DNA of 64,000 bases, taken from the NCBI GenBank assembly GCA_963805625.1, contig CAWDVE010000010.1:160001-224000 (forward strand), given 5' to 3'. This DNA is from an uncultured Candidatus Rokubacteria bacterium (GTDB lineage Bacteria; Methylomirabilota; Methylomirabilia; Rokubacteriales; DASRDR01). Shown in pieces: positions 43,527 through 64,000 of this stretch. Each line of letters opens with the position of its first letter. Within the stretch, counting starts at the first letter, position 1. The position numbers and the translations under genes were made by a program. The notes beneath the pieces were generated by a model. The model was not told where the DNA came from, searched no databases, and saw only the letters and a list, made by a program, of their open reading frames with translations.

Positions 43527-43630
43527 GCCAAAGGCCGCCACAGGCCGAAGGCCGTCCCAAGAACGCCGTCCCATGAAGGCTGTCCGATCGACGCCGCCCG
43601 TAAGGTAACCGGGCGAGCGAGGAGAGACCC

Positions 43631-44050: not shown

Positions 44051-44107
44051 GGCGAGAGCGGAGGCGGCCGCCCGGGCGGCCGATTGCCCTTCGCGCGCGG
44101 CGTGACT

Positions 44108-44136
44108 TTGACAATCCCCGTCGCGGCCGGTAGCCT
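44108..44136 (+). promoter_or_regulatory. sigma70 promoter at left edge of metal cluster
   Basis: TTGACA-17 bp-TAGCCT, 7 nt before ATG 44144. Confidence 0.8.
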
Positions 44137-44143
44137 CAGGGGC

Positions 44144-44497
44144 ATGGCGCCGTCGTCACCGGGCCACCAGTTGATGAGCCGGTTGGTCGTGCTGTTTGCC
44201 ATTGGGACGCTGCTCGGGCACGTGTGCGCGCCGGAGCCGGGTCATCATCACCTGGCCGACGCTTCGCCATTCATCGGCTCCACCGGCCCCGATTCCGGCG
44301 GACCCGTGGCGATCGCCGAGGCCTCTTGTGAGAGCCTGAAGTCGGCGTCCGCCTGGCCCGTCATGCGGGCCATCGACAGTCGGCCGCTCCCCGTCCCTGG
44401 CCTTGACGTACGTGGTTCGGCGAGGGCAGGCCGGGACGCGGATGTTCGGGTACCACGTCTCCCGCTCTTCGTGCTGCACGCCGCGCTTCTGATTTAG
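44144..44497 (+). CDS. Putative leader ORF A (hydrophobic N-terminus, His/Cys, hydrophobic C-terminus)
   Basis: GHVC..GHHH after hydrophobic segment; ends PRLPLFVLHAALLI. Confidence 0.6.
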   Translation: MAPSSPGHQLMSRLVVLFAIGTLLGHVCAPEPGHHHLADASPFIGSTGPDSGGPVAIAEASCESLKSASAWPVMRAIDSRPLPVPGLDVRGSARAGRDADVRVPRLPLFVLHAALLI

Positions 44498-44594
44498 CCT
44501 GGCCGTTCGCTCGCCTCTCCACGGTCACGGGGTCCGGACGCCCGTCCAGAGCCGGGTTCGTCACCGTCACGACCCACTAGAGTGAGCATGGTCA

Positions 44595-45101
44595 ATGTCC
44601 AGGAACGGCATGGTTGCGGGGGCTGTCGTCATCGTCCTCCTGGTGGCCTGGTTCGTCCGGTTCGGCGGGGCCCAGGTCCCGGGCCGGGACACAGGCCAAG
44701 GCGATCACCGGACACCAGCGGGCTGGCGTTTCACCTGGCCCGCGGGGGATCCGGTACGGGGACGGGGCGTCTTCGCGAAGTATGAGTGCTTCAGCTGCCA
44801 CGAGGTCCGTGGGGAGCCGTTTGCGGTCCCCCAGGACGCCGGGAATATCGGACCGGAGCTGGCGGCGATGGGACCCGCGCACGAGGCGGAGTACTTCGTC
44901 GAGGCGATCATCAATCCGAATGCCGTGGTCGAGCCGGGAAAGGGCTACGAGGCGGCGGACGGCTCCTCGAAGATGCCGTCGTTCAACGATACGCTGACCG
45001 TCCAGGAGTTGCTCGATCTGGTCGCGTATCTCAAGGTGCTGCGGCCCCCGCCTGCGCCACCCGGGGCGGCCGGTGGGCAGGGCGGCCATGCGACCCATTG
45101 A
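44595..45101 (+). CDS. Membrane-anchored monoheme cytochrome c
   Basis: CFSCH, GPEL, KMP axial Met. Confidence 0.88.
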   Translation: MSRNGMVAGAVVIVLLVAWFVRFGGAQVPGRDTGQGDHRTPAGWRFTWPAGDPVRGRGVFAKYECFSCHEVRGEPFAVPQDAGNIGPELAAMGPAHEAEYFVEAIINPNAVVEPGKGYEAADGSSKMPSFNDTLTVQELLDLVAYLKVLRPPPAPPGAAGGQGGHATH

Positions 45102-45316
45102 GCACCTGCCGCGGGGCTGCCACCCTGGATCGACCGATGGCGCCGCGACCTGGGGCATCGCTGCCTCAGTTGGTGAGCGCGTGACGCAACGGCCGAAGGC
45201 CCTGCCAGCTCCTCACGATGCTGGCCGCCATCCTTGGTGTCGTGTTCTCGCGGACTTGCGCCGAGGTCAGGGAGTTGGCGCGGGAGTTGCCCGCCTGTTA
45301 ATCGTGAGGGGCTGTG

Positions 45317-45562
45317 ATGCCTAGGGGTATGCTCGGCCGAGTCCTGGTGCTGGTCGCCGTGGCGTTGTTCGCGGGAGCTAGTCTCTGCGTCCTGGACGCC
45401 GACGACGGGACCGGGCTGGACCTCTGTGGCGTGGCGCTGCTGCCGGTCGCTGTCATCGTCCTCGGAGCGCCGCAGCCGCTCGTCGGTCGGCTGGTGCCGG
45501 TCCAGATCCCGATTCGTCTCGCCGTTCCCCTGGAGCGCCCCGTCCCTCCTCCCCGAGCCTAG
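45317..45562 (+). CDS. Putative leader ORF B (C-x12-C, C-terminal PPPR)
   Basis: 81 aa; homologous to ORF at 48227. Confidence 0.7.
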   Translation: MPRGMLGRVLVLVAVALFAGASLCVLDADDGTGLDLCGVALLPVAVIVLGAPQPLVGRLVPVQIPIRLAVPLERPVPPPRA

Positions 45563-45646
45563 CTCGTCCCAAACGCCCTGGTGTGGACCCCCGCCCCGAT
45601 ATGGGCGGGGGGGCCCTGAAACTCGAGCAGAGAGGGGAGTCTCTCC

Positions 45647-46042
45647 ATGCGTGCATGGCTTTGTGTCGGGCTGCTGGTCGCCGCCCTCGGCAGTGCCCGC
45701 GGCGTGAGCGCCCAGGACGCGCTGACCCGACGGGACGGGCAGGGCGCGGTGACGGTTGCCGTCACGCTCGCCGGGCCGCCGGAGGTCGGCGTGCCGATCC
45801 GCGTCACGATCGTCCTCGATACCCATACCGTGTCGCTGGATGACGTCGTGTTCGAACGCGCGGTGGCCCTTCGGATGCCCGAGGGCGCCGAGGTCGTGCC
45901 CACCAAGGTGGAGGGGTCGAGGGGCAGCGGCCACCACCGCGAAGCGGTCGTCGTGTTTCCCCCGGTCACCCAGCGAGGGCCGGTGCGCGTTGTCGTGAGG
46001 AACGTCGGTGGCATCGGCGAGCGCGTCTTCGTGTGGGAGTAG
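45647..46042 (+). CDS. Exported hypothetical protein with DTH and GHHR motifs
   Basis: Signal peptide, SD; His motifs suggest metal binding. Confidence 0.75.
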   Translation: MRAWLCVGLLVAALGSARGVSAQDALTRRDGQGAVTVAVTLAGPPEVGVPIRVTIVLDTHTVSLDDVVFERAVALRMPEGAEVVPTKVEGSRGSGHHREAVVVFPPVTQRGPVRVVVRNVGGIGERVFVWE

Positions 46043-46081
46043 CCGGCAGTGCAGTGAACTCCGACAGGAGAGAGGTCCGAG

Positions 46082-46234
46082 ATGGCCAAGGATCCCGTGT
46101 GTGGGATGACCGTGGACGAGAAGAAGGCGGCGGCGAAGGCGAGCTACCAGGGCCAGACGTACTACTTCTGCTCGGCCGGATGCAAGGTGACCTTCGAGAA
46201 GGCGCCAGCGCAGTACGCGACCGGCCAACGATAA
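46082..46234 (+). CDS. YHS domain protein (50 aa, absent from ORF track)
   Basis: MAKDPVCGMTV..YQGQTYYFCSAGCK..F; SD-like GAGG upstream. Confidence 0.92.
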   Translation: MAKDPVCGMTVDEKKAAAKASYQGQTYYFCSAGCKVTFEKAPAQYATGQR

Positions 46235-46302
46235 GTCACGCCTGTGCTCAGACGCGTCGCGCGCTCGTCACACTCTTCACCCTAGCCCGCGAGAGGTGAA
46301 CC

Positions 46303-46683
46303 ATGAAGACGATTCTGACGATTCTCCTGACCGTTGCGCTCGGAACATTCGCGATCGTGCATGCGCAGCAGGCGCCATCGCCCGGGGCGGGCCCAATGGG
46401 ACCCGGCATGATGGCCGGCATGCACCAGCAGATGATGGGCCTGATGCAGCAGATGGGCGGGATGATGCAGCAAATGGGCGAGATGATGGCCAGTGGTCAG
46501 ATGTCGCCCGAGCGGATGAAGCAGATGGGGGACGCGATGAAGCAGATGGGCAGTCTGATGGGCGGCATGGGCGCGCGGGGCGGGTCGATGGGCCCGATGG
46601 CCATGCCCGAGATGTCGAGGATGATGGAGCACATGGCCGAGATGCAGAAGCGCATGTCGGACATGATGGGCGCGCCGAAGTGA
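46303..46683 (+). CDS. Exported methionine-rich protein
   Basis: Signal peptide then MxxM/MM helical repeats; SD GAGGTG. Confidence 0.85.
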   Translation: MKTILTILLTVALGTFAIVHAQQAPSPGAGPMGPGMMAGMHQQMMGLMQQMGGMMQQMGEMMASGQMSPERMKQMGDAMKQMGSLMGGMGARGGSMGPMAMPEMSRMMEHMAEMQKRMSDMMGAPK

Positions 46684-46708
46684 CGCCCAGTCGTAGAGGA
46701 GGAAGACG

Positions 46709-46969
46709 ATGCACCCGCTCAGCTTGAAAGTCATGACGTGGTCGTGGGGGCTCTTCGGGGCGGTGACCTTCGTGGCGTGCGTGGGGTACGGCCTGGTGGT
46801 CCCACGCGCCTTCCACGCGGGCCAGCTCCTCGAGCAGATCCTCCCGGGTTTTCGATGGCTGACCCCGGGGAGCGTCCTGCTCGGAGTCGGGGAGACCTTT
46901 ATGTATGGGGCCTACGCGGGGTTCGTGTTCACCCTGATCCACAACACCGTGCTCCGCCGGAGCCAATGA
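46709..46969 (+). CDS. DUF5676-like small membrane protein, copy 1
   Basis: LPGFRWLT..GS.LLG..ETF.YG motif; SD GAGGAGG. Confidence 0.75.
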   Translation: MHPLSLKVMTWSWGLFGAVTFVACVGYGLVVPRAFHAGQLLEQILPGFRWLTPGSVLLGVGETFMYGAYAGFVFTLIHNTVLRRSQ

Positions 46970-47236
46970 CAGGTCGATGGTGAGGTTCTTGTCGCCACCG
47001 GGCTCGGAAGGCTGCTGGCGGGCATGATCGGCGCCTGGGCCAAGGTGGTCCTCGGCACGGACTCGGCGGCGCTGGACAGCGGGGCAGTCGAGCAAGCGGT
47101 CGCCATCCAGATGAGAGCCGAGGTATTGTGGATCGCGGTCGAGCAAGCTCGCGACACTGGCCATCATCACGAGGCTGTGCTGGTCTTCTCGTCCTCGCCG
47201 CAGTCGTGCAGCGTGCCAGAGCCACGCGAGCGGTGA
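46966..47236 (+). pseudogene. Chimeric relic: cytochrome c 5' end plus paralog fragment of 45647 ORF
   Basis: ATGACAGGTCGATGG-TGA matches the start of the 55402 gene; KVVLGTD..GHHHEAVLVF matches TIVLDTH..GHHREAVVVF. Confidence 0.65.
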
Positions 47237-47298
47237 CCCGCGCCATGCATGGGGCCGCGGCGATCCAGGATGATCATGGTGTCCTGGTCAGGGCTGTG

Positions 47299-48084
47299 AT
47301 GCTTGCGTGCCTGCTTGTGACCGGCTCCGTCATGGCACAGTCGGCCGCGCCGGTGCCGCACATCCCCGGCATGGCCATGCCCGCGGCCGAGCCAACGCCG
47401 CCACCCTTTTATCGTGAATGGACGTTTCACGTCCTCATCGGCCTCATCGCCGCGACGGCGGGGGTCCTCGCCCACCGCGCCTGGTCGCGACGGCGTTGGC
47501 GGCGTGCGCCGGCGGGCGTGGTGCAGGAGGCTGTACTCGTGGTGGACCTCGTGGCGTCGACGCAGCTCGCGACCCATCACGGCGGCAGCCTGGCGATGCG
47601 CGCCCGCAATGCGCTGGAGGAGCGCACTGTTCTGGCAGCGAGGCGGCAGGGAGTCGCCTTCGTCGAGAACACGGGGGACGGGTGCATGATGACATTCCCC
47701 TCGGTGGCTGCGGCCGTGCAAGCCGCCGTGGTGCTCCTGCGGGACCTACGAGACCGTCCGCCCGACCTGGCGCCCGGCCCCCCCCTCGACGTCCGCGTCG
47801 GCGTGGCCTACGGGGAGATCCTCCTCGACTCGCGCGGGGGGCGCCACGGCGCCGCGATCAACAAAGCCTTCCGGCTGATGGGCGTGCCGAGCGACACCTT
47901 CGTGACCGTCGAGGGGGAGGAGCGCCTTAAGGAGATCCCCGACCGGAATCGGATATTTTTGGACGAGGAAGCGGCCACCGAGTCGGCGTCGGGAAACGTC
48001 GCGCTCCGTCAGGTTGGCATCTGTCGACTCAAGGGATTCACCGGTTTCCACCGGGTGTACGAGATGCCCTGGAACGGGACATGA
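47299..48084 (+). CDS. Membrane-anchored class III nucleotide cyclase
   Basis: VVDLVAST, ENTGDG, RVGVAYGE, INKAFRL, LKGF; start may be 47245. Confidence 0.85.
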   Translation: MLACLLVTGSVMAQSAAPVPHIPGMAMPAAEPTPPPFYREWTFHVLIGLIAATAGVLAHRAWSRRRWRRAPAGVVQEAVLVVDLVASTQLATHHGGSLAMRARNALEERTVLAARRQGVAFVENTGDGCMMTFPSVAAAVQAAVVLLRDLRDRPPDLAPGPPLDVRVGVAYGEILLDSRGGRHGAAINKAFRLMGVPSDTFVTVEGEERLKEIPDRNRIFLDEEAATESASGNVALRQVGICRLKGFTGFHRVYEMPWNGT

Positions 48085-48226
48085 GGAGGCTGCGTGGACC
48101 ATCGGGCTGGGGCGAACGTGGGACACCTGGGTTGGACGCGTCCCGGATCGCGGAGCCGGTGTTCACGGACGCCTGGGGAAATGCGGTGTTACTGATGGCA
48201 GGGGGGTTGCAAGAATAGAGGATGCC

Positions 48227-48490
48227 ATGAGACACGTGGCGGACGGCGCGACCCTTGTGAAGACCGTGGCGTTCGTCGTGCTCGTGCTCGGGCTCCTGTG
48301 CCTCGTCCACGGGGTCGACCACGACGAGTTCGGCGGTAGTTTTTGCGCGGGGACGGTCCTGCTCTCCCTCGTCGTGGCGCTGGACGCGGACCCGCGGCTC
48401 AGTCGCCGCTTCCGGCCTGCGCCGGCATTCGCCCTGTACACCACCCTCCTAGAGCTTCCCGATCTCCCTCCCAGGATTCGTCCAGCCTAG
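48227..48490 (+). CDS. Putative leader ORF C (C-x14-C, C-terminal PPR)
   Basis: 87 aa; SD GAGGA; homologous to ORF B. Confidence 0.7.
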   Translation: MRHVADGATLVKTVAFVVLVLGLLCLVHGVDHDEFGGSFCAGTVLLSLVVALDADPRLSRRFRPAPAFALYTTLLELPDLPPRIRPA

Positions 48491-48616
48491 TTCCTCGCGG
48501 TAGCGGCTTCGAGACACGCGGCTGGCCGGAGGGCGGTTGGCCGCAGAGCGGCGAGGGTTGGGTACTCGGTCCCGAGGAGTGATGCGCTGCCCCGGGCCCG
48601 ATGCCGGAGGGCGTGG

Positions 48617-51600
48617 GTGAACCAGACCGAGCGGACACCGGCCGAGGGGCCATCCCCCTCGGGGCGCGGCAACATCAGCCGCTGGTCGATCGAGCACCCG
48701 TACGTCGTCATTGCCTTCTACCTGGGCGTGGCGCTGCTCGCCGTCCTCGTCATCTTCTTCCAGATGCCGCGACGCATGATGCCCTACGTCGAGAGCCCCC
48801 TCGTGGGTGTCGTCTCGATGATGCCCGGGCTGTCCGCGGAGGAGATGGAGCTCTACTTCTCGAAGCCGATCGAGGAGCGGATGGTGGACCTGAAGAACGT
48901 CCACTTCGTCCGGTCAACCTCGCAGGAGGGCTTCTCGATCGTGACGGTGGAGTTCTGGTACGGCACCGACATGAAGAAGGCGCTGTTCGACATCCAGGCG
49001 CTGATGAACGTCGTGCAGGCGGACCTGCCCATGACCGGGGCGAACCTCAAGCCGTCTTGGGTGCTGGCGATCGACCCCCTGAACATTCCAGTCTTGACGC
49101 TCGCGGTGACCGCCGAACGGTACGATCCCGTCCAGCTCCGGACGCTCGTCGAGAACGAGGTGGTCAATCGGCTGAAGGTGGTCAAGGACGTTTACTCGGT
49201 GGTGACGTTCGGGGGACAGAAGCTTCAGATGCAAGTGGTGGTCGACCGGGAGCGCCTAGCCGCGTACAAAATGAGCCTCCTCGACCTGAAGAGCATGCTG
49301 GACATGCAGAACGTCTCCAAGCCAGCGGGGACGCTGACCTACCGGGACCGCGAGATCCTCGTGCGGAGCGACTTCCGGGCCCGGACTCCGGAGGAGGTGG
49401 CCGCCTACCCCATCGCCAGCATGGAGGGCCGTACCGTCTACCTCCGGGACGTGGCCGACGTGATCCGGACGCCACGGGAACAGCGGAGCCTCTATCGCTT
49501 CAACGGCCAGGAGGCGATCGAGGTCTCGGTCATCCAGCAGCCGGAGGCGAGCTCGGTGCGAGTGATCGAGGGGGTCAAGGCCAAGCTGAAGGAGATCGAG
49601 GAGGATTTCCCGGGGCTCCGGTTCGAGATCGCCTACGACAACTCGACGTTCGTCGGCTCCCTCATGACCAACATGGGCGAGGAGCTCGTGATCGCGGTCC
49701 TGCTCACCGGGCTGGTCGTGCTCTTCTTCCTCGGGAGCATCCGAGGCACCCTCATCTCGCTCATCACGATCCCGGTTTCGCTCGGGATGGCGCTCCTCGC
49801 CATGTCGCCCTTCGGGATGACGCTGAACAGCTCCACGCTGATCGGTCTGCTGCTTTCGATCGGCCGGCTGGTCGACGATTCCATCATCGACATCCACTCG
49901 ATCGAGCGTCATCTGCGGATGGGCAAGTCGCCGAAGCAGGCCGCGATCGACGGGATCACGGAGGTGCGCCTCGCCGTGCTCGCGATCACGTTCATGCTCT
50001 GCGTGGCGCTCGTCCCCCTGGCATTCGCGGGGGGGATCGTCCAGTTCATGTTCGAGGGGATCGTGTGGGCAATCATCCTCGCGCTGCTCGCGTCCGCGCT
50101 AGTCTCCTTCACGCTCACGGCGTTGCTGGCCGCGCACCTCTTCACGCCTCACACCACCGAGGCCGGCGCACGTCAGGGCCGGTTCCAGCGGTGGCTCCTG
50201 GACCCCTCGCAACGATTCCTCGAGCGGCTGGAAGCTCACTACCGCAACAGCCTGGTCTGGTCCATCCGGAATCGATTCGTGGTCCTGAGCGGAGCGATCT
50301 CGGTGATCCTGGTTGGCGTCGCCCTGTACCCGGGGATCGGCAGCGAGATGATGCCGCTCGCCGACGTGTCACAGGCCTTCGTCCAGCTCGAGGCGACGCC
50401 GGGCACCTCCTTCGCCCGCACGGCCGAGATCGCCGCCGAGGTGGAGCGGATCCTCCAGCGCCAGCCGGAAGTCACGAAGATCTCCTCGGAGGTCGGGTTC
50501 GAGCCGGGGGGGACGTACTTCACCGGCTACAGCATGGGCTCGGTGAACTCGGTCTTCATGATGCTCACGCTCGTGGACTCCTCGAAGCGGACGCGGGACA
50601 TCTGGCAGGTCATGGACGGAGTCCGCGATGAGGCCATGCGAACAATCCCTGGGATCCGACGGCTCACCGTCAAGGAAATGGGAGCGGACGTGATGGCCTC
50701 AAGCGCCGCCCCTGTCCAGGTGATCTTCTTCGGCCCGGATCTCGAGAAGCTTCACGAGATCGGAGAGCAGGCGCGGCAGCTCGCCGCGGAGATTCCGGGG
50801 TTCTCTCAGGTTGCGACGTCCTGGGCCCAGACCCTCCCCCAGCTCCACGTGATCGTGGATCGGGTTCGCGCGCAGGAGCTCGGGCTCACGGTCGCCGACA
50901 TCACCGACCAGGCCTACTACGCGCTCAGGGGGGGCCTCGCGAACGAGTTCTACCGATTGGACAACCAGCGGCAGTTCACGATTCTCCTTCGCTACCGCGG
51001 GGAGCAGCGGCGCGACCGGACCGATCTCGAGCAGGTCAAGATCGTCGGCAAGCGGGGCGAGGTCGTGCCACTCGCGTCAGTGGCCCGGATCGAGGAGCGA
51101 GAAGGTCCGACGCTGATCGAGCGCGACAACTTCCGCCGGGTCATCTCCGTGCTCGGCTTCTACCGGAAGGGGGGGCCGCCGAGCATGGAGCTCGCGATGG
51201 ACCTCCTGATGGCCGCGCACCAGAAGATCAGCTTCCCCCCGGGCTACGGGGTGGAGTTACGGGGCGACATGACACAGATGGAGGAGTCGTTCCAGCGGCT
51301 CCTCCGGGGCCTCTACCTGGCGGTCATCTTCATGGTCCTGCTCCTGGTGGCACAGTTCCGGAGTCTGATCGAGCCGTTCAACATGATCGTATCGCTCTCC
51401 CTGATGCTCACCGGGATCCTGGGCGGGCTGCTCCTGGCCCGGCAGACGTTCTCGACCGTTTCGATCCTGGCCGTCGTGATCCTGACGGGGATGATGATGA
51501 CCGTCGCCGTGTTGATGATCGACCTGGTGCTGCGGCTGCGCGGGGACGGGATGGCGCGGGACGAAGCCATCCTGACGGCCGCACCCATCCGCCTGCGACC

Positions 51601-51838
51601 GATCCTTATGACGTCCCTCATCAGCATCGTCGTGCTGATCCCGGTGGCCTTCTTCCCGCGGACCGGCATCGACGCGTACGCGCCACTGGCCACCGTCACG
51701 ATCGGCGGGCTGTCGATAGGCACGGTACTGGCTCTCTTCGTGGTGCCGGTCCTGCACACGTACGCCGATGACCTCGCGTCCGCGATGCGTCGTGTTCTGG
51801 GGCAGCGACGTGGCCGACGGGAGGTCTCGCACCGATGA
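48617..51838 (+). CDS. RND efflux permease
   Basis: 1073 aa, GRLVDDSII, RLRPILMTS, PLATVTIGGL. Confidence 0.93.
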   Translation: MNQTERTPAEGPSPSGRGNISRWSIEHPYVVIAFYLGVALLAVLVIFFQMPRRMMPYVESPLVGVVSMMPGLSAEEMELYFSKPIEERMVDLKNVHFVRSTSQEGFSIVTVEFWYGTDMKKALFDIQALMNVVQADLPMTGANLKPSWVLAIDPLNIPVLTLAVTAERYDPVQLRTLVENEVVNRLKVVKDVYSVVTFGGQKLQMQVVVDRERLAAYKMSLLDLKSMLDMQNVSKPAGTLTYRDREILVRSDFRARTPEEVAAYPIASMEGRTVYLRDVADVIRTPREQRSLYRFNGQEAIEVSVIQQPEASSVRVIEGVKAKLKEIEEDFPGLRFEIAYDNSTFVGSLMTNMGEELVIAVLLTGLVVLFFLGSIRGTLISLITIPVSLGMALLAMSPFGMTLNSSTLIGLLLSIGRLVDDSIIDIHSIERHLRMGKSPKQAAIDGITEVRLAVLAITFMLCVALVPLAFAGGIVQFMFEGIVWAIILALLASALVSFTLTALLAAHLFTPHTTEAGARQGRFQRWLLDPSQRFLERLEAHYRNSLVWSIRNRFVVLSGAISVILVGVALYPGIGSEMMPLADVSQAFVQLEATPGTSFARTAEIAAEVERILQRQPEVTKISSEVGFEPGGTYFTGYSMGSVNSVFMMLTLVDSSKRTRDIWQVMDGVRDEAMRTIPGIRRLTVKEMGADVMASSAAPVQVIFFGPDLEKLHEIGEQARQLAAEIPGFSQVATSWAQTLPQLHVIVDRVRAQELGLTVADITDQAYYALRGGLANEFYRLDNQRQFTILLRYRGEQRRDRTDLEQVKIVGKRGEVVPLASVARIEEREGPTLIERDNFRRVISVLGFYRKGGPPSMELAMDLLMAAHQKISFPPGYGVELRGDMTQMEESFQRLLRGLYLAVIFMVLLLVAQFRSLIEPFNMIVSLSLMLTGILGGLLLARQTFSTVSILAVVILTGMMMTVAVLMIDLVLRLRGDGMARDEAILTAAPIRLRPILMTSLISIVVLIPVAFFPRTGIDAYAPLATVTIGGLSIGTVLALFVVPVLHTYADDLASAMRRVLGQRRGRREVSHR

Positions 51839-52101
51839 CGCCCCGGAGTCGCTACCTGATCCCGGCAGACGCGGTGATCCACGCCGAGCCGGCCGGTGTC
51901 GCTCAGTTCATGAGGCGGACGCCAGCGAGGTCGGGCCCGAGCCTCGAGGAGCTCGATTGGCTCTCGGCAACGCTGCGGGAGTTGAGCACCACATTGAGGG
52001 AGCCCCGCCGCCGTCACGACGAGGCCGCCTGGGGGAATCTCACGGCGGGGCAGCGACAAACAGAGACCCCTGGGGAGAAACGCGATGGAGGGTGCTCATG
52101 A
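51835..52101 (+). CDS. Hypothetical 88-aa protein
   Basis: ATGA overlaps with both neighbours. Confidence 0.55.
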   Translation: MTPRSRYLIPADAVIHAEPAGVAQFMRRTPARSGPSLEELDWLSATLRELSTTLREPRRRHDEAAWGNLTAGQRQTETPGEKRDGGCS

Positions 52102-53741
52102 CTATCAACGGCAGTGAACAAGCACCGATCGCGCCCGCGCGCCCGCCTGAGCCCGCCGATGACCGAGCGGTGCGCCGGGAGGGCGCGCGGGCGCGGACGT
52201 GGGGACTCCGTATGGGGGCACTCGTGGCGGTAGGGGCTGCGGCCGGATGGGCGTACTACGCGAATGTCGTGGCCGGTCGGCCGACGATGGACATGACGAT
52301 GCGGGTGAGTGCGGGGGGTGCGGCATTTCCCGTTACGCTCGCGCGCGTCGAGCGGCGCCGGATGACCGGAACCGTGATCTACACCGGTAGCGTGGTGCCG
52401 TTCGCCGAGGAGGACATCTACCCGCGGGTGACCGGACGGATCGTCGAGATGCCGGTCTACCCAGGAGACGCCGTGCGGCCGGGCCAGGTCGTGGCGCGGC
52501 TCGACGACGCGGAGCTCAGCTCTCGGGTCCGCGAGGCAACCGCCGCCACGACGGCCGCGGAGGCCAACGTCGCACAGATGGAGGCCGACGTCGTCGCGGC
52601 GAGCCACGGCGTGACGCAGATGGAGCGCGAGGTGGCCATGACGGTCGCCGACGTGGCCGCGGCCCGCGAAGGCGTGGTTCAGATGGAGCGGGAGCTCGCC
52701 ATGGTAGAGGCGGAGGCCAGCTACCAGGAGCCGTTGCTCGCGCGGGAGGAGCAGCTATTCCGGGTCGGCGCCGTCTCGCGGCAGGACGTCGAGAACGCCC
52801 GTGCGATGGCCGCCGCGACGCAGGCGAAGGGGCAGGCCGCCCGCGCCAAGGTGAACCAGGCCCGGGCCATGGTTCTCTCGGCCCAGGCGAAGGCCGAGGC
52901 CGCTCGGGCGCGACTCGAGCAGGCAGGCGCGATGGAGGCCAGCGCTCGCCGGAAGCGCGATGCGATGGCCGCGATGGCAGGGCAGAGCCAGGCCCAGCTC
53001 GGGACCGCGCAGGTGGTCAGGGACTACGTCAACATCCTGGCGCCCAGCGCTGGCTACGTCGTGAAGCGACTAGTCGCGCCGGGAGTCCTGGTGCAGCCCG
53101 GCATGGCGATCCTCAAGATCGCGCAGATCGACCGGATCCGACTCCAGGCGAACGTCGGCGAGAAGGATCTGCCGTCGATCCGGGTGGGATCACCGGTCAC
53201 CGTGACCACGACGGGTCCCGAGCCGGTGCCGATCACCGCTTCGGTGACCTCGGTCTTCCCCTTTGTCGACCAGGGTCCGCGGACCGCCGTCGTGGAAGCG
53301 ATCGTCGAGAACCCGGGGCGGCGGCTCCTGCCCGGGCAGTACGTGACGATGCAGTTCGTGACCGGCGAGCGAGTCGACGCGCTCACCGTCCCCCGGACGG
53401 CCGTGGCGCGTATGGGCGGGAAGACTCGCGTGTGGGCGATCGAGGGCGACCAGGCGCAGCCGCGCGAGGTAACGACGGGGCTCGAGAACCCCGATCTCGT
53501 GGAGGTGGTGAGGGGCCTCGTCGGAACCGACCGGGTGGTCGCGCGAGGCCACGAGGGGCTCTATGCCGGTGCGCGGGTGACCGACGTGTCGGGCGTCAAG
53601 AAGACAGTGCCTACGGCGCCGGCCGCACCGGGCGGCATGCCGGGCATGAGCGAGTCGGCCGCGCCCAAGCCCAGTGGTGGCGCGCCGGCGAAACCCGAGG
53701 AGCCCGCCAAGGGCGAGGGAGGCGCGCATGGCACCCACTGA
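52098..53741 (+). CDS. RND periplasmic adaptor (MFP) with long helical hairpin
   Basis: PRVTGRI..V.PGD.V, ILAPSAGYV, LLPGQYV, TGLE. Confidence 0.9.
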   Translation: MTINGSEQAPIAPARPPEPADDRAVRREGARARTWGLRMGALVAVGAAAGWAYYANVVAGRPTMDMTMRVSAGGAAFPVTLARVERRRMTGTVIYTGSVVPFAEEDIYPRVTGRIVEMPVYPGDAVRPGQVVARLDDAELSSRVREATAATTAAEANVAQMEADVVAASHGVTQMEREVAMTVADVAAAREGVVQMERELAMVEAEASYQEPLLAREEQLFRVGAVSRQDVENARAMAAATQAKGQAARAKVNQARAMVLSAQAKAEAARARLEQAGAMEASARRKRDAMAAMAGQSQAQLGTAQVVRDYVNILAPSAGYVVKRLVAPGVLVQPGMAILKIAQIDRIRLQANVGEKDLPSIRVGSPVTVTTTGPEPVPITASVTSVFPFVDQGPRTAVVEAIVENPGRRLLPGQYVTMQFVTGERVDALTVPRTAVARMGGKTRVWAIEGDQAQPREVTTGLENPDLVEVVRGLVGTDRVVARGHEGLYAGARVTDVSGVKKTVPTAPAAPGGMPGMSESAAPKPSGGAPAKPEEPAKGEGGAHGTH

Positions 53742-55095
53742 GACGGAACGGGTCCGACGATCGGTGTGGGTGGGGGTCCTGGTCGGAGGCGGCTTCCTGC
53801 TGGCGGCGGGGAATGTCATGGCCCAGCCGCCGCCGCTCCCGCGTGTCGAGGGGCCGTTGACCATGGAGCAGGCGGTGAACCTAGCGCTCCAGCAGAACCT
53901 TCGGGTGAAGGCGGCGGATGCCGACGCTCGGACGATGGATTCGATGCAGCGGGAGGCCCTGGCGCCGTTCTGGCCTCTGCTGTCGATCAATGGCTATCTG
54001 AGCGACCAGAACCTGGGACCGAACGTCTACACGTCCGCCGGCACCACGATGGCCCGGAACTTCCAGGTGTTCAGCGCCGACCAGAGCCGCGACGCCAACG
54101 TGACGGCGATGTACGCCCTCTTCTCGGGCGGGCGGGACTACTATGGCTACAAGGCGGCCGCGGCACGGGTGGATGCGGGTCGCCAGATGCTCCAAGGCAC
54201 CCGAGTGGACGCCGCCATGCAGGTACGGCTGGACTACATCGCGACCCTGCGGGAGACGGAGAATACCCGAGTCACCGGAGAGTTGCGGCGGGACGTGGAG
54301 GAGCGGCTCCGGCTCAGTCGGGAGCTCTTCGACGCGGGGCGGATCCCACGCTACTACGTGTTGCGCGATGAGGCCGAGCTCGCCAATGTCGCACAGATGG
54401 ACGCGATGGCGCGAAGCCGTGCCGAGGCCGCGCTCGTGGCGCTCAAGACCACTCTCGGGGTGGACCTCGCGTCCTCGATCACGCTCGCGGACCGGCTCGA
54501 GTACACGCCGGCCACCGTCTCGGTCGAGGACGGGATCCGCCAGGCCAGCGAGATCCACCCCGAGCTGAAGGCCGCCGTCAAGCGGCGGGAGGCGACCGAA
54601 GCGGACGTGCGCGCCGCCCACGGGAACTACTTCCCCCAGGTGTCGCTGGTGGCCATGTACGACTGGGCGTGGGCAAAGAACGGCAGCGAGGCGCACACAA
54701 CCGACCAGGGGTACTCCGTCGGCGTCGTGGTGACCCTGCCGGTGTTCGACGGCTTCATGCGCGAGAACGCGCTGAAGACGGCCAAGTCGAAGCTCGACCG
54801 GGCGGTCCAGGCGGAGACCATCGCCCGGCAGCAGATCGAGAAGGACGTCAACCAGGTGGCGCTCATGCTGACGGCCGCCGACAAGAGCGTCGAGGCCAGC
54901 CGGAAGGGGCTCGAGCAGGCGGAGGAGGAGTACCGGATCGTCCGGGAGCGCTTCGCGGCGGGCCGGGGGATCCAGCTGGAGATCCTGGACGCGCAGGTCA
55001 GTTTGACCCGCGCGCGGTTCAATGCGATCTCGGCGCTCGCCGAATACCATACGGCTCTCTCCATGTGGCTCAAGGCGACGGCGCGGATTCGGTGA
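53728..55095 (+). CDS. TolC family outer membrane efflux protein
   Basis: LTMEQAV..AL..N, YFPQVSL, LPVFDG, RFAAG..LEILDAQ. Confidence 0.9.
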   Translation: MAPTETERVRRSVWVGVLVGGGFLLAAGNVMAQPPPLPRVEGPLTMEQAVNLALQQNLRVKAADADARTMDSMQREALAPFWPLLSINGYLSDQNLGPNVYTSAGTTMARNFQVFSADQSRDANVTAMYALFSGGRDYYGYKAAAARVDAGRQMLQGTRVDAAMQVRLDYIATLRETENTRVTGELRRDVEERLRLSRELFDAGRIPRYYVLRDEAELANVAQMDAMARSRAEAALVALKTTLGVDLASSITLADRLEYTPATVSVEDGIRQASEIHPELKAAVKRREATEADVRAAHGNYFPQVSLVAMYDWAWAKNGSEAHTTDQGYSVGVVVTLPVFDGFMRENALKTAKSKLDRAVQAETIARQQIEKDVNQVALMLTAADKSVEASRKGLEQAEEEYRIVRERFAAGRGIQLEILDAQVSLTRARFNAISALAEYHTALSMWLKATARIR

Positions 55096-55824: not shown

Positions 55825-56418
55825 ATGCGATTGACCATCGGGGTGATGGGCTCGAGCGGCGGAGACTTGAGCGAGGCGACCCTCGCCAAGGCGCATCGCC
55901 TGGGGGAGGCGATCGCGGCGCGCGACGCGGTCCTCATCACGGGAGGCTGCCCCGGGCTCCCGTACGAGGCCGTTCGGGGGGCGAAGGCCAGGGGCGGTCT
56001 GGTGGTCGGGATCTCCCCCGGCCTCTCCCTCGACGAGCACCGGCGGAAGTACCACTCGCCGGTCGACGGTTTCGACGTGCTCATCTACACGGGCAGCGGG
56101 CTCATGGGCCCGGAGATCACGAACATCCGCTCGTGCGACATGGTTGTGATCGCGGGGGGCCGGACTGGCACGCTGGGGGAACTCGCGATCGCCTACGACG
56201 AGGGCCGGCTGATCGGCGTGCTGACGGGGACGGGCGGCATCACGGAGCTGGTGGAACCCATCATCAAGGCCAGTGGAAAAGAGACCGGGGCGTGCGTGCT
56301 CTACGACGACGATCCAGAGCGGCTCGTCGATCGGCTGATCCACTACTACCGCACTAAGCACGTCCGGAAGCCCTCGTGCTTCTGCGACGTGCGGCCAGAC
56401 GGGGCGGTGGCACCATGA
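55825..56418 (+). CDS. LOG/SLOG family nucleotide-binding protein
   Basis: [23 protein letters not shown]. Confidence 0.85.
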
Positions 56419-58943
56419 CGGCGATCGGCCATGTCGGGCATGCCCCCTCGGCCACCACGGGGGTGGGCGGTGCCTCTGCCCCTGTCCAGCGCATCGAACT
56501 CCCCGTCGTCGGCCTGACCTGCGCGGCCTGCGTTCAGGCTGTCGAGCACGCGCTCCGGGCGGTGCCGGGCGTCTCCGGTGCGACGGTCAATCTGACCCAA
56601 GGGCGAGCCTTCGTCGAGTACGACCCCGCGCAGACCACCGTGGCCGCCCTGCATGACGCGATCAAGGCGGCGGGCTACCGGTCAGAGACGGCGACGGCCC
56701 GGTTCCGGATCGACGGGATCACCTGCGCCTCCTGCGTCACGAAGATCGAGACCACGCTCCACGAGAGTCCGGGGGTGCTCGCGGCCACCGTGAGCGTGGG
56801 CAGCGAGGAGGCCACGGTCAAGTACGTGCCGAGCGTGACCGACTTGTCCGCCGTCACGGCCGCGGTGGGGTCGGCCGGCTATCGGGTCGTCGAGACTCCG
56901 GCCCCGGCGGCCCCCAGCGCCCTCGATCGGGAGGCGGAGGCCCGGGCGCGCGAGTACCGGACGTTGATGCGCCAGTGGTGGTTCGGCGCGGGCGTCGGCA
57001 CGTTCACCATGATCCTCAGCTACCCGTGGCTCTTCCCGGTCCTCCGCGACTGGTTCCCGCGGGAGAGCCATCAGCTCTGGTACATGTGGGCGCTGATGGG
57101 GGCCGCCTCCCTGGCGGTCATCCTCGTCAGTGGCCGCCACTTCTTCACCGGAGCCTGGCAGGCGCTCCGGCACCGGTCGGCGAACATGCACACGCTGATC
57201 GCTCTGGGGACGGGGGTGGCCTGGGTCTACTCGACGATCGCCCTCCTGTTCCCGCAAATCTTCCCGGCCCGCGAGTTCGCCGACGTGTACTACGACGTGA
57301 CCGTCGTGGTGATCGCCCTGGTGGATCTCGGGCTGGCCATGGAGCTCCGCGCGAAAGGCCGCACCTCGGAGGCGATCAAGAAGCTGATCGGGCTCCAGGC
57401 CAAGATCGCGCGCGTCATCCGGGACGGCACGGAGCGGGACCTGCCCGTGGAGGAGGTGCTGGTGGGCGATGTCGTCGTCGTCCGGCCCGGGGAGAAGATC
57501 CCCGTCGACGGCGAGATCGTCGAGGGCGCCTCGGCTGTGGACGAGTCGATGGTCACCGGGGAGTCGATGCCGGTCGAGAAGCGGGCCGGGGACGAGGTCA
57601 TCGGGGGGACCCTCAACAAGACCGGGGCCTTCCGCTTTCGCGCGACCAAGGTGGGCAAGGACACCGCCCTGGCCAGCATCATCCGCCTGGTCCAGGACGC
57701 GCAGGGCTCCAAGGTCCCGATCCAGCGCATCGTGGACGTGGTGTCCGGGTACTTCACGCCGAGCGTCGCGATCCTCGCCATCGTCGGCTTCATGCTCTGG
57801 TACACGTTCGGGCCGGAGCCGCGGCTCGTCTACGCCATGATCGTGGCGGTCACGACCCTGATCATCGCCTGCCCGTGTGCCCTCGGGATGGCGACGCCGA
57901 TGTCGCTGACGACTGGCGTCGGGCTGGGCGCCCTCAACGGGATCCTGATCCGGAGCGGCGATGCGCTCCAGACCGCGCAGGGGATCGGGACCGTCATCCT
58001 GGACAAGACGGGCACCATCACGCACGGGAAGCCCGTTCTCACCGACATCGTGACGGCCGACGGCGTCGACGAGGCCACCCTGTTGCGGCTGGCCGGCGGC
58101 GTCGAGCGATCGTCGGAGCACCCGCTGGCGGCCGCGATCGTGGAGGGCGCCGAGCGACGGGGATTGACCTTGCCCGATCCCACGACCTTTGCGGCGATCC
58201 CCGGTCACGGGATCGAGGCGACGGTGGAGGACCGCGCCCTCCTGCTGGGGAACCTCAAGCTCATGCGTGACCGCGCCATTCCGCTCGACGGCCTCGACGA
58301 GCGCGCCAGCCAGCTCGCCGGCGAGGGGAAGACCGCGATGTACGTGGCGATCGACGGCCGGCTGGCCGGGATCGTCGCGGTGGCCGACACGGTCAAGGAG
58401 GACTCGCGGGCGGCGATCCAGGCGCTCACGGCGATGGGCCTGGAGGTCGTCATGATGACGGGCGACAACGAGCGGACGGGCCAGGCCATCGCCCGTCAGG
58501 TCGGGATCGACCGGGTCCTGGCCGAGGTTCTGCCGCAGGACAAGGCCTTCAACGTCCAAAAGCTCCAGCTCGAGGGGAAGACCGTCGCCATGGTCGGGGA
58601 TGGGATCAACGACGCCCCCGCGCTCGCCCAGGCGCATGTGGGCTTCGCGATCGGGACGGGCACGGACGTGGCCATCGCGGCCTCCGACATCACCCTCATC
58701 AAGGGCAGCCTCCGCGGCGTGGTGACGGCGATCCAGATCAGCCGCGCCACCATGCGGAACGTCTACCAAAACCTCGTCGGGGCGTTCGTCTACAACGTTC
58801 TCGGGCTCCCCGTCGCCTTGGGCCTGCTCTATCCGTTCTTCGGGATCCTGCTCTCGCCACTCCTCGCCGCGCTCGCCATGTCCTTCAGTTCGGTGACCGT
58901 GATCACCAATGCCAACCGGCTCAAGCGTTGGAGCCCGACATGA
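56415..58943 (+). CDS. copA: Cu(I)-translocating P1B-1 ATPase
   Basis: Two HMA domains (TCAAC, TCASC), TGES, CPC, DKTGT, SEHP, GDGIND, YN and MxxSS. Confidence 0.95.
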
Positions 58944-59317
58944 CCTGGGACCGCGTCCTGGTCAACCTGATTGGACTCGGACTGGTCGGTGGGATCGTGT
59001 GGTTCTTCTGGCTGGTCAAGACGAAGGGGGTCCGGGCCGCGACGAGCCACAGCGGCTACCAGGAGCAGATGGTCCTGGTCAAGGGCGGGTACACACCGGA
59101 TCTCATCGTGGTGGAGGCGGGGAAACCCGTCCGGCTCACATTCGTCCGGCAAGAATCGGCCTCGTGCACGGAGATGGTGCTGCTCCCGAGCTTCGGCAAG
59201 TCGGCGCGCCTTCCGGAGGGGGAGCCCGTCCCGGTGGAGTTCCTCCCGAAGGAGCCTGGGGAGCATGAGTTCGCCTGCCAGATGGGCATGATCCGCGGCA
59301 AGGTCCTCGTGGAATAG
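58940..59317 (+). CDS. Membrane-anchored cupredoxin (CupA-like)
   Basis: [18 protein letters not shown]; ATGA coupling to copA. Confidence 0.88.
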
Positions 59318-59327
59318 GAGGGACGAC

Positions 59328-59543
59328 GTGGTCGGCCGCTGGCGGTCCGGCCCAAGGCGAGAGTCCACACTCGAGCTCGGGATCGGAATCGGCGTGTGCG
59401 TGGTGCCGTCGGTCTTTGCCCTGGTTGCCTGGTGGGTCGGATGGCGCGCGGGCATCACGGTGGCTCTGGCCGTCGCGGCGGCGATCGCCCTCGTGTGCTG
59501 GATCCTCTGCCGAGGGGGAAGCGACGGTAGGGACGCAGCCTGA
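59328..59543 (+). CDS. Small two-TM hypothetical protein
   Basis: SD GGAGG, two hydrophobic segments. Confidence 0.55.
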   Translation: MVGRWRSGPRRESTLELGIGIGVCVVPSVFALVAWWVGWRAGITVALAVAAAIALVCWILCRGGSDGRDAA

Positions 59544-59556
59544 GGAGGGTCAGACA

Positions 59557-59859
59557 ATGACGGCGGACGAGATGCGACGCGATCGGTCCTGGCTGTGGTC
59601 CCGCTCCGGGCTGGTGCTCGTGGCATTCCTGCTCATCGCGGGGTTCTTCGTCCTGACCGAGCACACGGCGCACGTCCTCGGGGTGCTGCCCTACCTGCTC
59701 CTCCTGGCCTGTCCGCTGCTGCACCTCTTCCACCGCGGGCACGGCGGAGGGCACGGGAGCCACCGCGGGCCGGGGCCGCACGACGGACACGCGGATCAGG
59801 GCGCGGGTGACGGCGAGAGGGCGGTCAGCCGCTCACCCCGCGACGGAGCAGACCGATGA
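59557..59859 (+). CDS. DUF2933 family membrane protein
   Basis: EHTAH, LLLLACPLLHLFH.GHGGGH. Confidence 0.85.
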   Translation: MTADEMRRDRSWLWSRSGLVLVAFLLIAGFFVLTEHTAHVLGVLPYLLLLACPLLHLFHRGHGGGHGSHRGPGPHDGHADQGAGDGERAVSRSPRDGADR

Positions 59860-60509
59860 CGGGCGCAGGCCCGGCGTATGGGCTCTGGGATCTGGTCATT
59901 CTGAACGTCGTCGTGTTCGTGGCCTTTGCGTTCAGCTTCGCGCGTCCGACCACCGCACGCGACTGGCGGTCATTCGGGGCGTTCACGGCCTTTCTGATCG
60001 CCCTCTTCACGGAGATGTACGGCTTTCCGCTCACGCTCTATCTCCTGTCGGGTTGGCTCCAGCGGCGGTACCCCGGCCTCGACGTCCTCTCTCATGACAC
60101 GGGCCACCTCTGGGAGACGCTGTTCGGCTGGCGGGGTGATCCGCATCTGAACCCACTGCACCTCCTCAGCAACGCGCTAATCGCCGGGGGGTTCATTCTG
60201 CTGGCGGCGGCCTGGCGCGTGCTCTATGCGGCCCAGCGGCGGCATCAGCTGGCGACCACGGGCGCCTACGCCTACCTGCGGCATCCCCAGTACGCGGGGT
60301 TCATCCTCATCATGCTCGGCTTCCTGCTCCAGTGGCCAACCGTCCTGACCCTGGCCATGTTCCCGATCCTCGTGGCGATGTACGTGCGCCTGGCCCATCG
60401 CGAAGAGCGCGAGGCCCGGGCCGAGTTCGGCGAGGCCTACGCGCGCTACGCCGCCACCACGCCGGCGTTCATCCCCCGGCTCCGTCGAGAGACCCCGAGG
60501 CCAGCCTGA
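59856..60509 (+). CDS. Isoprenylcysteine carboxyl methyltransferase/PEMT family membrane protein
   Basis: FTEMYGFPLT, TTGAYAYLRHPQY, REE, PAFIP. Confidence 0.88.
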   Translation: MTGAGPAYGLWDLVILNVVVFVAFAFSFARPTTARDWRSFGAFTAFLIALFTEMYGFPLTLYLLSGWLQRRYPGLDVLSHDTGHLWETLFGWRGDPHLNPLHLLSNALIAGGFILLAAAWRVLYAAQRRHQLATTGAYAYLRHPQYAGFILIMLGFLLQWPTVLTLAMFPILVAMYVRLAHREEREARAEFGEAYARYAATTPAFIPRLRRETPRPA

Positions 60510-61422: not shown

Positions 61423-61439
61423 CTCGTACCGCGTGCCCT

Positions 61440-62543: not shown

Positions 62544-62658
62544 CTTGAGTCCCTCATTTCTGGATGTGCGAGGATCATCGAATTGGCGAGCGACGCTTCT
62601 CGGCCAGATGGCACGCTTGCCGGCCGCTCGCATGTTGTCCTCACATATTCGACTTCAA

Positions 62659-62673
62659 GCAATCCGTCTGCCA
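62659..62673 (-). promoter_or_regulatory. sigma-54 promoter (leftward)
   Basis: TGGCAG-ACGGA-TTGC, GG-N10-GC. Confidence 0.8.
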
Positions 62674-63620: not shown

Positions 63621-63720
63621 CGCGTTCCCTGTCGTGATGGCCGGCCCCCGGAGCGGTCCTCCGGGGGTCGGAGCGGTTCCCGAGGATGCCGGACGTACAA
63701 TCTCGCCAAAGGAGTCCGGC

Positions 63721-64000
63721 ATGACACTGCCACGTCCGGCTCGGTACTTCCTCGCCTCCGTGGTGCTCCTGGCCGCCCTCGTGAGCGTCGTGGCGGTGTC
63801 CGCGGCACGCCGCACGCAGCGGGAGCTCGCGCGCCAGCTCGAGGAGACCGGGCTCGCCCTGGCCAACGCCCTTGAGGCGTCGAGTCAGAACGTGATCCGG
63901 GCCAACGCGCTCATGGAGGAGATGATCAGCCAGCGCCTCCTCGACAACGCCCGCCTCCTGGACCAGCTCCTCCGCTTCCGGCCGCCGGATCCGGACTGGC
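63721..64000 (+). CDS. Probable sensor histidine kinase, N-terminal part (truncated by window)
   Basis: SD AAGGAG, N-terminal TM then helical extracytoplasmic region; kinase identity inferred from sigma-54 context only. Confidence 0.5.
   Translation, partial: MTLPRPARYFLASVVLLAALVSVVAVSAARRTQRELARQLEETGLALANALEASSQNVIRANALMEEMISQRLLDNARLLDQLLRFRPPDPDW

What the first reader, a model, noticed from the sequence alone, without database searches (positions are those of the whole stretch)
45317..48490. Candidate new family of metal-sensing ribosome-arrest leader peptides (ORFs B and C)
Seen: two small diverged paralogs, 45317-45562 and 48227-48490, each first in a metal operon (exported protein/YHS/Met-rich; RND-MFP-TolC..copA). 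Both have a signal-like hydrophobic N-terminus, LC-x12/14-C with an Asp (in C also His)-rich spacer, a second hydrophobic stretch and terminal LE-x-P-x-x-PPR. The second Cys lies exactly 43 residues before the Arg in both (C37-R80; C40-R83) despite low identity, roughly a ribosome-tunnel length. Established: CruR (Bordetella) and CutF (Rhodobacter), DUF2946-type uORFs, use a signal sequence, CxxC and a Pro-rich or RAPP C-terminal stalling motif for copper-dependent control of downstream genes. These ORFs lack both CxxC and RAPP. Inference: a distinct analogous family in which metal binding during export modulates stalling at PPR and switches on efflux genes.
Basis: partly seen in the sequence, partly recalled or inferred. 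Interest (0 to 1): 0.85.

Follow-up and report, generated by a model that had tools for sequence, protein, structure and literature searches.

The report
Two-cysteine polyproline leaders before copper genes
Two small related genes, each behind a conserved sigma-54-type promoter motif at the head of a copper-handling gene cluster, belong to an unannotated family that keeps a fixed 43-residue distance between a cysteine and a proline-run tail, and they likely pause their own ribosome to switch on the genes behind them when copper is sensed outside the cell, as the known sensor CutF does.

Summary
Both ORFs are real, and the stated spacing (C37-R80, C40-R83) is correct. They are homologous members of an unannotated family found in 55 of 251 genomes of this phylum (Methylomirabilota by record titles). 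The second Cys lies 43 residues before the residue after the Pro run in 131 of 146 diverse members (42-44 in 145), while the Cys-Cys gap varies from 9 to 19. New here: a sigma-54 promoter motif precedes 47 of 52 loci, including B and C, and a sigma-54 two-component system sits at the end of the cluster. The penultimate Pro codon is the rare CCT in 34 of 52 loci. No member matches Pfam DUF2946. Verdict: a new, minimal variant of the CutF-type stalling leader. Stalling, copper sensing and the RNA switch are inferred only; my tests for a locus-specific RNA switch were mostly negative. The scan has noted CutF-like polyproline leaders in other genomes before, but none matched this sequence.

The parts
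45276..45290 (+). sigma-54 (-24/-12) promoter motif in front of ORF B; predicted 5' UTR about 15 nt
   Evidence: (strict motif at 4 places in the whole window; 42 of 52 family loci)
45317..45562 (+). ORF B, 81 aa leader: signal-peptide-like residues 1-22, Cys24 (45386), Cys37 (45425), PPP 77-79 (45545-45553), Arg80
45588..45611 (+). predicted 9-bp GC-rich hairpin between B and the next gene, with no U-tract after it
   Evidence: fold; not among terminator-like sites; no consensus structure across loci
45647..46042 (+). exported 131-aa protein of no Pfam family; the commonest first gene behind the leader (24 of 53 loci)
46082..46234 (+). YHS-domain protein
46303..46683 (+). exported Met-rich protein
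   Evidence: sequence; no Pfam hit over cut-off
46709..46969 (+). DUF5676 two-helix membrane protein
48196..48210 (+). sigma-54 promoter motif in front of ORF C; predicted 5' UTR about 5 nt
48227..48490 (+). ORF C, 87 aa leader: hydrophobic N-terminus, Cys25 (48299), Cys40 (48344), PP 81-82 (48467-48472), Arg83
48617..55095 (+). RND permease, membrane-fusion protein and outer-membrane channel behind C
56376..60509 (+). copper-type P1B ATPase, cupredoxin, DUF2933 and ICMT-family methyltransferase further down the same strand
63637..64000 (+). start of a sensor kinase with a Met/His-rich N-terminal region; it runs out of the window and is followed by a response regulator (G000:C10:225467-226825) that is the genome's best match to the family-associated sigma-54 regulator

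Best explanation
B and C are homologous small leader genes that likely act in cis as CutF-type sensors: each is predicted to be exported while it is being made, and would pause its ribosome at the C-terminal proline run when copper binds its two cysteines, which would switch on the copper-handling genes behind it. Shown by sequence: the ORFs, their homology, the fixed 43-residue distance, the sigma-54 promoter motifs, the copper-related neighbours and the codon bias in the Pro run. Inferred steps: (1) the neighbouring sensor kinase and sigma-54 regulator start the transcript; (2) the signal-like N-terminus takes the nascent chain to the Sec translocon; (3) with the Pro run in the peptidyl-transferase centre, the second Cys is at the distance where a chain reaches the translocon and membrane, so both Cys can meet periplasmic Cu(I) or form a disulfide; (4) without copper, folding, pulling and EF-P let the ribosome finish; with copper the pause lasts longer; (5) the paused ribosome covers the C-rich 3' end of the leader, freeing the next ribosome-binding site or hiding a Rho-loading site. 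Step 5 is the least certain.
For: Spacing: 43 in 131 of 146 representatives, 42-44 in 145, while the Cys1-Cys2 gap ranges 9-19; 42-44 in 52 of 52 valid genome loci; the spacer sequence itself is variable (pN/pS about 0.6). CutF: distal Cys73 to Arg117 is 44 and the tail is PPPRL (PMC8456105 passages); stalling there needs the PPP motif and the signal sequence, and a Cys5-Cys45 disulfide is proposed (bioRxiv 10.1101/2025.02.05.636593). Chains meet the translocon about 45 residues from the PTC (PMC7886326 passages). Signal-peptidase-like site: small residue at Cys1-2 in 97% and A/G at Cys1-4 in 85% of 145 members. Promoter motif in 47 of 52 loci vs 1.3% of random windows and 0-3 loci at wrong spacings. 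Neighbours: 19 of 20 long loci share at least one gene type with this window's cluster; multicopper oxidase, cupredoxins, YHS and a heavy-metal-binding ATPase found. Nucleotide-level constraint: CCT-CCC in 23 of 52 loci vs 2.4-4.1% of background PP pairs. Masking the leader's tail lowers the cost of opening the next ribosome-binding site by 2.5 kcal/mol vs 0.2 in 250 control gene pairs. EF-P, Rho and RpoN are present in the genome.
Against: No experiment shows translation, stalling or metal binding. There is no CxxC or CxxxC. C has only PP and lacks the signal-peptidase-like site. No locus-specific pairing between leader tail and next ribosome-binding site: chimeric tails occlude as well as native ones (38 loci, p 0.9), duplex test null (p 0.77), Pro codons pair with the SD in only 2 of 34 folds, replacing CCT-CCC changes nothing (p 0.9), no consensus structure. 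The intergenic gaps (84 and 126 nt) are too long for simple melting by a stalled ribosome. HtrA protease is the first gene in 9 of 53 loci and the RND substrate is unproven. A copper-type two-component system might make a second copper sensor redundant. The profile search favours ungapped matches, and the genomes are related, so the counts overstate independence.
Confidence: 0.6

Rival explanations
1. The leader is a cis-acting stall sensor, but it reads envelope state (disulfide formation or export force), not metal binding. The two Cys form a disulfide whose folding pulls the ribosome free; copper acts only indirectly by disturbing thiols.
For: Only two Cys are near-invariant. HtrA protease is first gene in 9 of 53 loci and a redoxin in 1. 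DsbA-family genes are in the genome. The CutF model itself invokes disulfides.
Against: The HtrA loci checked continue into the same RND module. The Cys-Cys spacer is Asp/His-rich (23% D; His in 91 of 145). No sec, yidC or dsb gene was seen as first downstream gene in the 53 loci.
Confidence: 0.15
2. Same leader, CruR-type logic: the ribosome stalls by default and covers a Rho-loading site; metal relieves the stall and Rho ends the transcript, so metal turns the genes down.
For: The leader's 3' end is C-rich and G-poor (69% C, 12% G in the last 15 nt of the Pro run) with rare CCT codons; rare CCT codons mark the rut site of cruR (PMC9426467). Rho is present. SD-pairing tests were mostly null.
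Against: The downstream genes look like export and detoxification genes, which should rise with metal. C-richness follows largely from Pro codons. There is no RAPP.
Confidence: 0.1
3. The product is a small exported or membrane peptide acting in trans, as a metal-binding chaperone or a feedback modulator of the neighbouring sensor kinase; the Pro tail is structural.
For: It is the first gene of sigma-54 units next to a two-component system. AlphaFold gives two confident helices, residues 3-30 and 36-50 (pLDDT 77, pTM 0.38).
Against: A spacer of fixed length but free sequence, a stop 1-2 codons after the Pro run in 104 of 145 members, the synonymous codon bias, and two or more copies per genome, each heading its own unit, all point to action on its own mRNA.
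Confidence: 0.1
4. The ORFs are untranslated by-products of a conserved promoter or UTR region.
For: pN/pS is only moderately below 1 (about 0.6). No proteomic or Ribo-seq data were available.
Against: Open frames with near-invariant Cys and Pro at 19-54% identity across 132 aligned proteins; 44% of differences at third positions, and stops in all five other frames in 10-30 of 42 loci.
Confidence: 0.02

Closest known systems
CutF of Rhodobacter capsulatus (cutFOG; PMC8456105, bioRxiv 10.1101/2022.11.11.516240 = PMC9973294, bioRxiv 10.1101/2025.02.05.636593)
   Same: Small first gene before copper genes; N-terminal export signal; PPPR one residue before the end (as in B); distal Cys 44 residues before the Arg (43 here); an extra Cys near the mature N-terminus.
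   Different: CutF is 118 aa with CxxxC and four Cys; this family is about 80 aa with two Cys 9-19 apart. No shared Pfam match was found. CutF uses an intergenic stem-loop over the cutO SD; here the hairpin lies upstream of the SD and no conserved switch was found. Sigma-54 promoters are not mentioned in the passages I read.
CruR (Bp2923) of Bordetella pertussis, Pfam DUF2946/PF11162 (PMC9426467; arrest shown in PMC12992588)
   Same: First gene of copper-related operons; conserved spacing between Cys motif and arrest motif; rare CCT Pro codons in the 3' part of the gene.
   Different: CruR has CXXC and RAPP with 45 intervening residues, is 145 aa, is turned off by copper through Rho, and needs no signal peptide. 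This family has neither motif and no PF11162 match.
CorSR-controlled curA cluster of Myxococcus xanthus (PMC3707914)
   Same: Copper cluster with CopA, cupredoxin, cytochrome, its own sensor kinase and sigma-54 response regulator, and several putative sigma-54 promoters.
   Different: No leader peptide appears in the passages read; orthology of the two-component systems was not tested.
Sec/YidC arrest peptides incl. uA_LPPP (PMC10987492)
   Same: Signal sequence plus a C-terminal XPPP motif; uA_LPPP stalls at its Pro run.
   Different: They precede secA, secDF or yidC; no conserved Cys pair appears in the passages read.

Membership tests
Pfam DUF2946 (PF11162, CruR family) | match to the PF11162 model | tested here: not met
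   B and C: no hit at E<=1. Not among the 25 listed of 75 families hit by 132 members at E<=10; the list reaches single-member families, so at most 1 member could match. No match in G000.
Pfam DUF2946 (PF11162, CruR family) | CXXC motif | tested here: not met
   Cys-Cys gap 9-19 in 145 members
Pfam DUF2946 (PF11162, CruR family) | C-terminal RAPP motif | tested here: not met
   tail is D-L-P-x-P-P-P-[K/R]
Pfam DUF2946 (PF11162, CruR family) | Cys-to-arrest-motif spacing conserved within 1-2 residues | tested here: met
   42-44 in 145 of 146; the value differs from CruR's
CutF-like class (filters of Ozturk et al. 2023) | shorter than 150 aa | tested here: met
   81 and 87 aa; filters read
CutF-like class (filters of Ozturk et al. 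2023) | PP within the last 15 residues | tested here: met
   146 of 150 listed representatives have a PP run within the last 20 residues, tails of 1-11 residues
CutF-like class (filters of Ozturk et al. 2023) | SignalP-predicted Sec signal peptide | tested here: inconclusive
   SignalP not available. The family profile fits n-region, h-region and the -3/-1 rule; B fits, C does not.
CutF-like class (filters of Ozturk et al. 2023) | next gene on the same strand within 1000 nt | tested here: met
   84 nt for B, 126 nt for C
CutF-like class (filters of Ozturk et al. 2023) | reached by jackhammer from the CutF seed set (lists B-D) | not testable with these tools
   File S1 is not among the 3 supplements held
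CutF proper | CxxxC copper-binding motif | tested here: not met
CutF proper | copper-dependent, EF-P-sensitive stalling at PPP that controls the next gene in cis | not testable with these tools
   needs toeprinting and reporters; EF-P is encoded
RAPP/RAGP arrest peptides of the Sec/YidC pathways | RAPP-like motif upstream of secA, secDF or yidC | tested here: not met
bacterial lipoprotein | lipobox with G/A/S directly before the Cys (rule recalled) | tested here: not met
   residue before Cys1 is L in 59%, F in 24%, A in 10%

The most novel reading that the evidence does not exclude
This is the minimal form of the export-coupled metal-sensing leader: one cysteine pair and a strict 43-residue ruler to a Pro run are the whole sensor, wired in series behind a sigma-54 copper two-component system, so that each unit of the regulon needs both a transcriptional and a co-translational signal, with the fixed CCT-CCC codons tuning the pause itself rather than pairing with the next gene.
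Probability: 0.3. Interest if true: 0.62.

Novelty: new variant of a known kind. Interest (0 to 1): 0.43.

Why it matters
How a nascent chain converts metal binding outside the membrane into a ribosome pause is still open for CutF and CruR. This family strips the device to two cysteines and a ruler almost equal to CutF's (43 vs 44), with more than 200 diverse natural variants that show which features are fixed (Cys, distance, Pro run, codon choice) and which are free. That makes the disulfide-versus-copper model directly testable on an 80-residue peptide. It extends this kind of control to an uncultured soil phylum and suggests a two-tier design behind sigma-54 promoters. The principle itself is already published, so this is a useful extension, not a new mechanism.

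Tried and rejected
Pro codons as anti-SD for the next gene: suggested by CCTCC in the Pro run, but supported in only 2 of 34 folds; duplex permutation p 0.77; swapping CCT-CCC for CCG-CCG no effect; chimeras equal to native. Only weaker signals remain: native tail codons beat synonymous recodings in 23 of 34 (p 0.005), and the control-gene comparison, which Pro-codon C-richness confounds. RNAalifold found no consensus on 21 loci. Rfam: 0 matches in 43000-50000 at E<=0.5. Sigma-70 scan: 0 sites in 43500-49000. Pfam and NCBIfam scans of 132 members gave only scattered membrane-protein hits. ESM Atlas: unnamed look-alike clusters at 0.92-0.94; DUF6412 (0.87) and a DUF2946-named cluster (0.85) are below the lead threshold. 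C's own profile found no relative in 60 related genomes. Three metatranscriptome runs hold contigs of relatives over B and C, but shares were 0.05-0.08 and contigs cannot show transcription. The AlphaFold model was not searched against fold libraries, being two helices and a tail. Rows dropped before counts: of 55 ORFs, L013 (fragment) and L049 (no PP) were left out; L043 ends without PP and its '44' is an artefact, so 52 loci are valid for spacing and codons. Of 150 representatives 4 have no terminal PP, and the single '45' (P0199) is the same artefact. The pattern classifier put 5 HtrA genes among the exported proteins and 1 under 'other'; I corrected these with the Pfam results. In 'CopA' means any P-type ATPase similar to the window's.
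Full report
Observation. B has Cys24, Cys37 and PPPR ending at Arg80; C has Cys25, Cys40 and PPR ending at Arg83; both distances are 43. Neither has a Pfam or NCBIfam match over a cut-off. A pattern for the architecture picks only these two among 91,071 six-frame ORFs of the genome; the pattern was drawn from the family.

Source and family. Record titles of close relatives name Methylomirabilota/Rokubacteria; one 5.8-kb contig at 85% identity is titled Actinomycetota and may be mis-binned. B has 55 homologs and C has 10. A broader B-only profile (A3, 18 rows) found 236 clusters at 50% identity with E<=0.001 among 1.84 billion representatives, of which 150 were listed. A 132-row profile that includes four C-type rows matched 55 of 251 genomes of the phylum, several with two or three copies. 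B and C are homologs: the B-only profile scores 11 of 11 C-family proteins at 15.7-24.2 bits against a maximum of 10.8 in 3,297 shuffles, and hhalign gives 77.7%, E 1.9e-5. Substitutions favour third positions (44%), pN/pS is about 0.6, and other frames are often closed.

Anatomy (145 members). An Arg-rich n-region and a 11-13 residue hydrophobic core are followed by [AG]-x-[GAS]-[LF]-C-[LV]-[FL]-D. This fits a signal-peptidase I site two residues before Cys1 and does not fit a lipobox (both rules recalled; SignalP was not available). C lacks this site and may stay anchored. An Asp/Gly/His-rich spacer of 9-19 residues leads to D-L-C, then a moderately hydrophobic helix (AlphaFold helix 36-50; too polar for a typical membrane span in most members), a variable stretch, and D-L-P-x-P-P-P-[K/R], with the stop 1-2 codons later in 104 of 145. 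The second Cys is 43 residues before the residue after the Pro run in 131 of 146 representatives and 42-44 in 145. In genome loci it is 43 in 42, 42 in 7 and 44 in 3 of 52 valid loci. The Cys-Cys gap in the same proteins is free, which is an internal control, but the profile made gaps cheaper there and I picked the Cys nearest 43, so some bias remains.

Context. First downstream genes in 53 loci: an exported 135-aa protein of no family 24, HtrA 9, RND permease 5, DUF5676 3, YHS 2, other 10 (corrected as told under Tried and rejected). Four B-profile hits precede the same RND type as C. In 20 longer loci, chosen for contig length, 19 share at least one gene type with this window's cluster; multicopper oxidase, cupredoxins, YHS and a heavy-metal-binding ATPase were found among 59 of 147 predicted neighbours scanned. 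No random-gene control was run for this. The RND itself is not typed as CusA/CzcA.

Aligning upstream regions showed the sigma-54 -24/-12 motif (consensus as quoted in PMC3707914). It is present in 47 of 52 loci, the strict form in 42, against 1.3% and 0.16% of random genome windows, and at wrong spacings in 0-3 loci. In the 64-kb window the strict form occurs four times, two of them before B (45276) and C (48196). RpoN is encoded. Sigma-54 response regulators lie in 5 of the 20 long loci, and the best match in this genome sits just past the window's end, behind a kinase with a Met/His-rich N-terminal region that starts at 63637. So B and C each likely head their own transcript, in a cluster built like the CorSR copper cluster of Myxococcus.

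RNA level. The penultimate Pro codon is CCT in 34 of 52 loci against about 12% in background PP pairs, and the pair CCT-CCC occurs in 23 of 52 against 2.4-4.1%. This points to a constraint on the mRNA or on decoding. Pairing with the next SD is the obvious idea, and most of my tests did not support it. Two weaker results favour some occlusion of the next ribosome-binding site by the leader's tail: masking the tail lowers the opening cost by 2.5 kcal/mol against 0.2 in 250 control pairs (1.5 for B), and native codons occlude more than synonymous ones in 23 of 34. The codon bias stays unexplained; a Rho-loading site or slow decoding are the alternatives.

Mechanism. The best reading is a cis-acting, export-coupled stall sensor. 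When the Pro run is at the peptidyl-transferase centre, Cys2 is 42-43 residues out, close to the roughly 45 residues at which chains meet the translocon (PMC7886326, passages). The Cys pair would then either form a disulfide and help pull the ribosome through, or bind Cu(I) and prolong the pause, turning on export genes. All of this is inferred from CutF.

Comparison. CutF has C69xxHC73 and ends P109EPEGPPPRL118 (PMC8456105, passages and section 28), so Cys73 to Arg117 is 44, and it lacks CxxC and RAPP just as B and C do. Its stalling needs PPP and is opposed by EF-P, and a Cys5-Cys45 disulfide is proposed (bioRxiv 10.1101/2025.02.05.636593; abstract, introduction, passages and discussion read). 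The CutF-like class was defined broadly, with 29 clusters of differing Cys/His sites (bioRxiv 10.1101/2022.11.11.516240; passages, outline and methods section); B and C meet the filters I could test. Conserved spacing was shown for DUF2946 (PMC9426467, passages), and CruR arrest in vitro in PMC12992588 (passages). PMC10987492 (passages) does not contain the words Rokubacteria or Methylomirabilota. Membership in Pfam DUF2946 is not met. Seven literature searches (listings only, except the papers named) showed no paper on this family or on such leaders behind sigma-54 promoters; the library lacks most subscription papers, and File S1 of the mBio paper was not among the three supplements held.

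Earlier notes of this scan. None matched B by sequence or place. A word search gave eight unchecked notes on CutF-like polyproline leaders in other genomes, several proposing Pro codons as anti-SD. That prompted the chimera test, which was null here.

Verdict. A real, conserved, unannotated family; a new minimal variant of the CutF-type leader, with a sigma-54 layer in front. Interest 0.43.

Noticed in passing
window 44144-44497 (+): A second, unrelated leader-like ORF before the cytochrome c gene: signal-like start, two Cys with His between them, and a conserved C-terminal (P)PLFxLHAxLL[IN] end instead of a Pro run. Five related genomes of 60 hold clear homologs; the distal Cys is 55-56 residues from the end (counted by eye), and one precedes a heavy-metal-binding-domain gene (judged from its sequence). 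It may be another fixed-ruler arrest peptide family.
   Followed up: partly
window 45647-46042 (+): Exported 131-aa protein with a conserved G-x-G-H-H-R motif, no Pfam family, look-alike clusters in Rokuibacteriota and Pseudomonadota; a candidate periplasmic metal chaperone.
   Followed up: partly
window 62659-62673 (-) and 61440-62633 (-): A third sigma-54 motif of the cluster precedes a Gly/Met-rich repeat protein and a TPR protein (60628-61443); no leader of this family was found there.
   Followed up: partly
window 63213-63620 (+) and 63637-64000 (+): Met-rich exported protein followed by a sensor kinase with a Met/His-rich N-terminal region and, beyond the window, a response regulator similar to sigma-54 regulators; resembles an accessory-protein plus two-component module.
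   Followed up: partly
window 47128-48084 (+): Membrane-anchored adenylate/guanylate-cyclase-like protein (weak NCBIfam hit) with a short Met/His-containing N-terminal part; similar genes follow family leaders in L051 and L061.
   Followed up: no
window 46709-46969 and 55148-55405 (+): Two similar copies of a DUF5676 two-helix protein in the same cluster; DUF5676 recurs in 8 of 20 family loci.
   Followed up: no
window 48527-48536 and 48604-48613 (+), approximate: A 10-nt stretch containing GGAGG occurs twice between C and the RND gene, once inside a predicted hairpin and once as the RND ribosome-binding site; either could pair with C's Pro codons.
   Followed up: partly
L043 and L049; P0199, P0214: A few family members keep the Cys pair and the length but end in P-A-P-[VI] or similar, without a Pro run; natural variants for testing the stall motif.
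   Followed up: no
L059, L062: Two distant members have a longer Cys-Cys spacer (about 24), lack the sigma-54 motif, show TTGACA upstream, and one precedes an AhpC/TSA redoxin gene.
   Followed up: no
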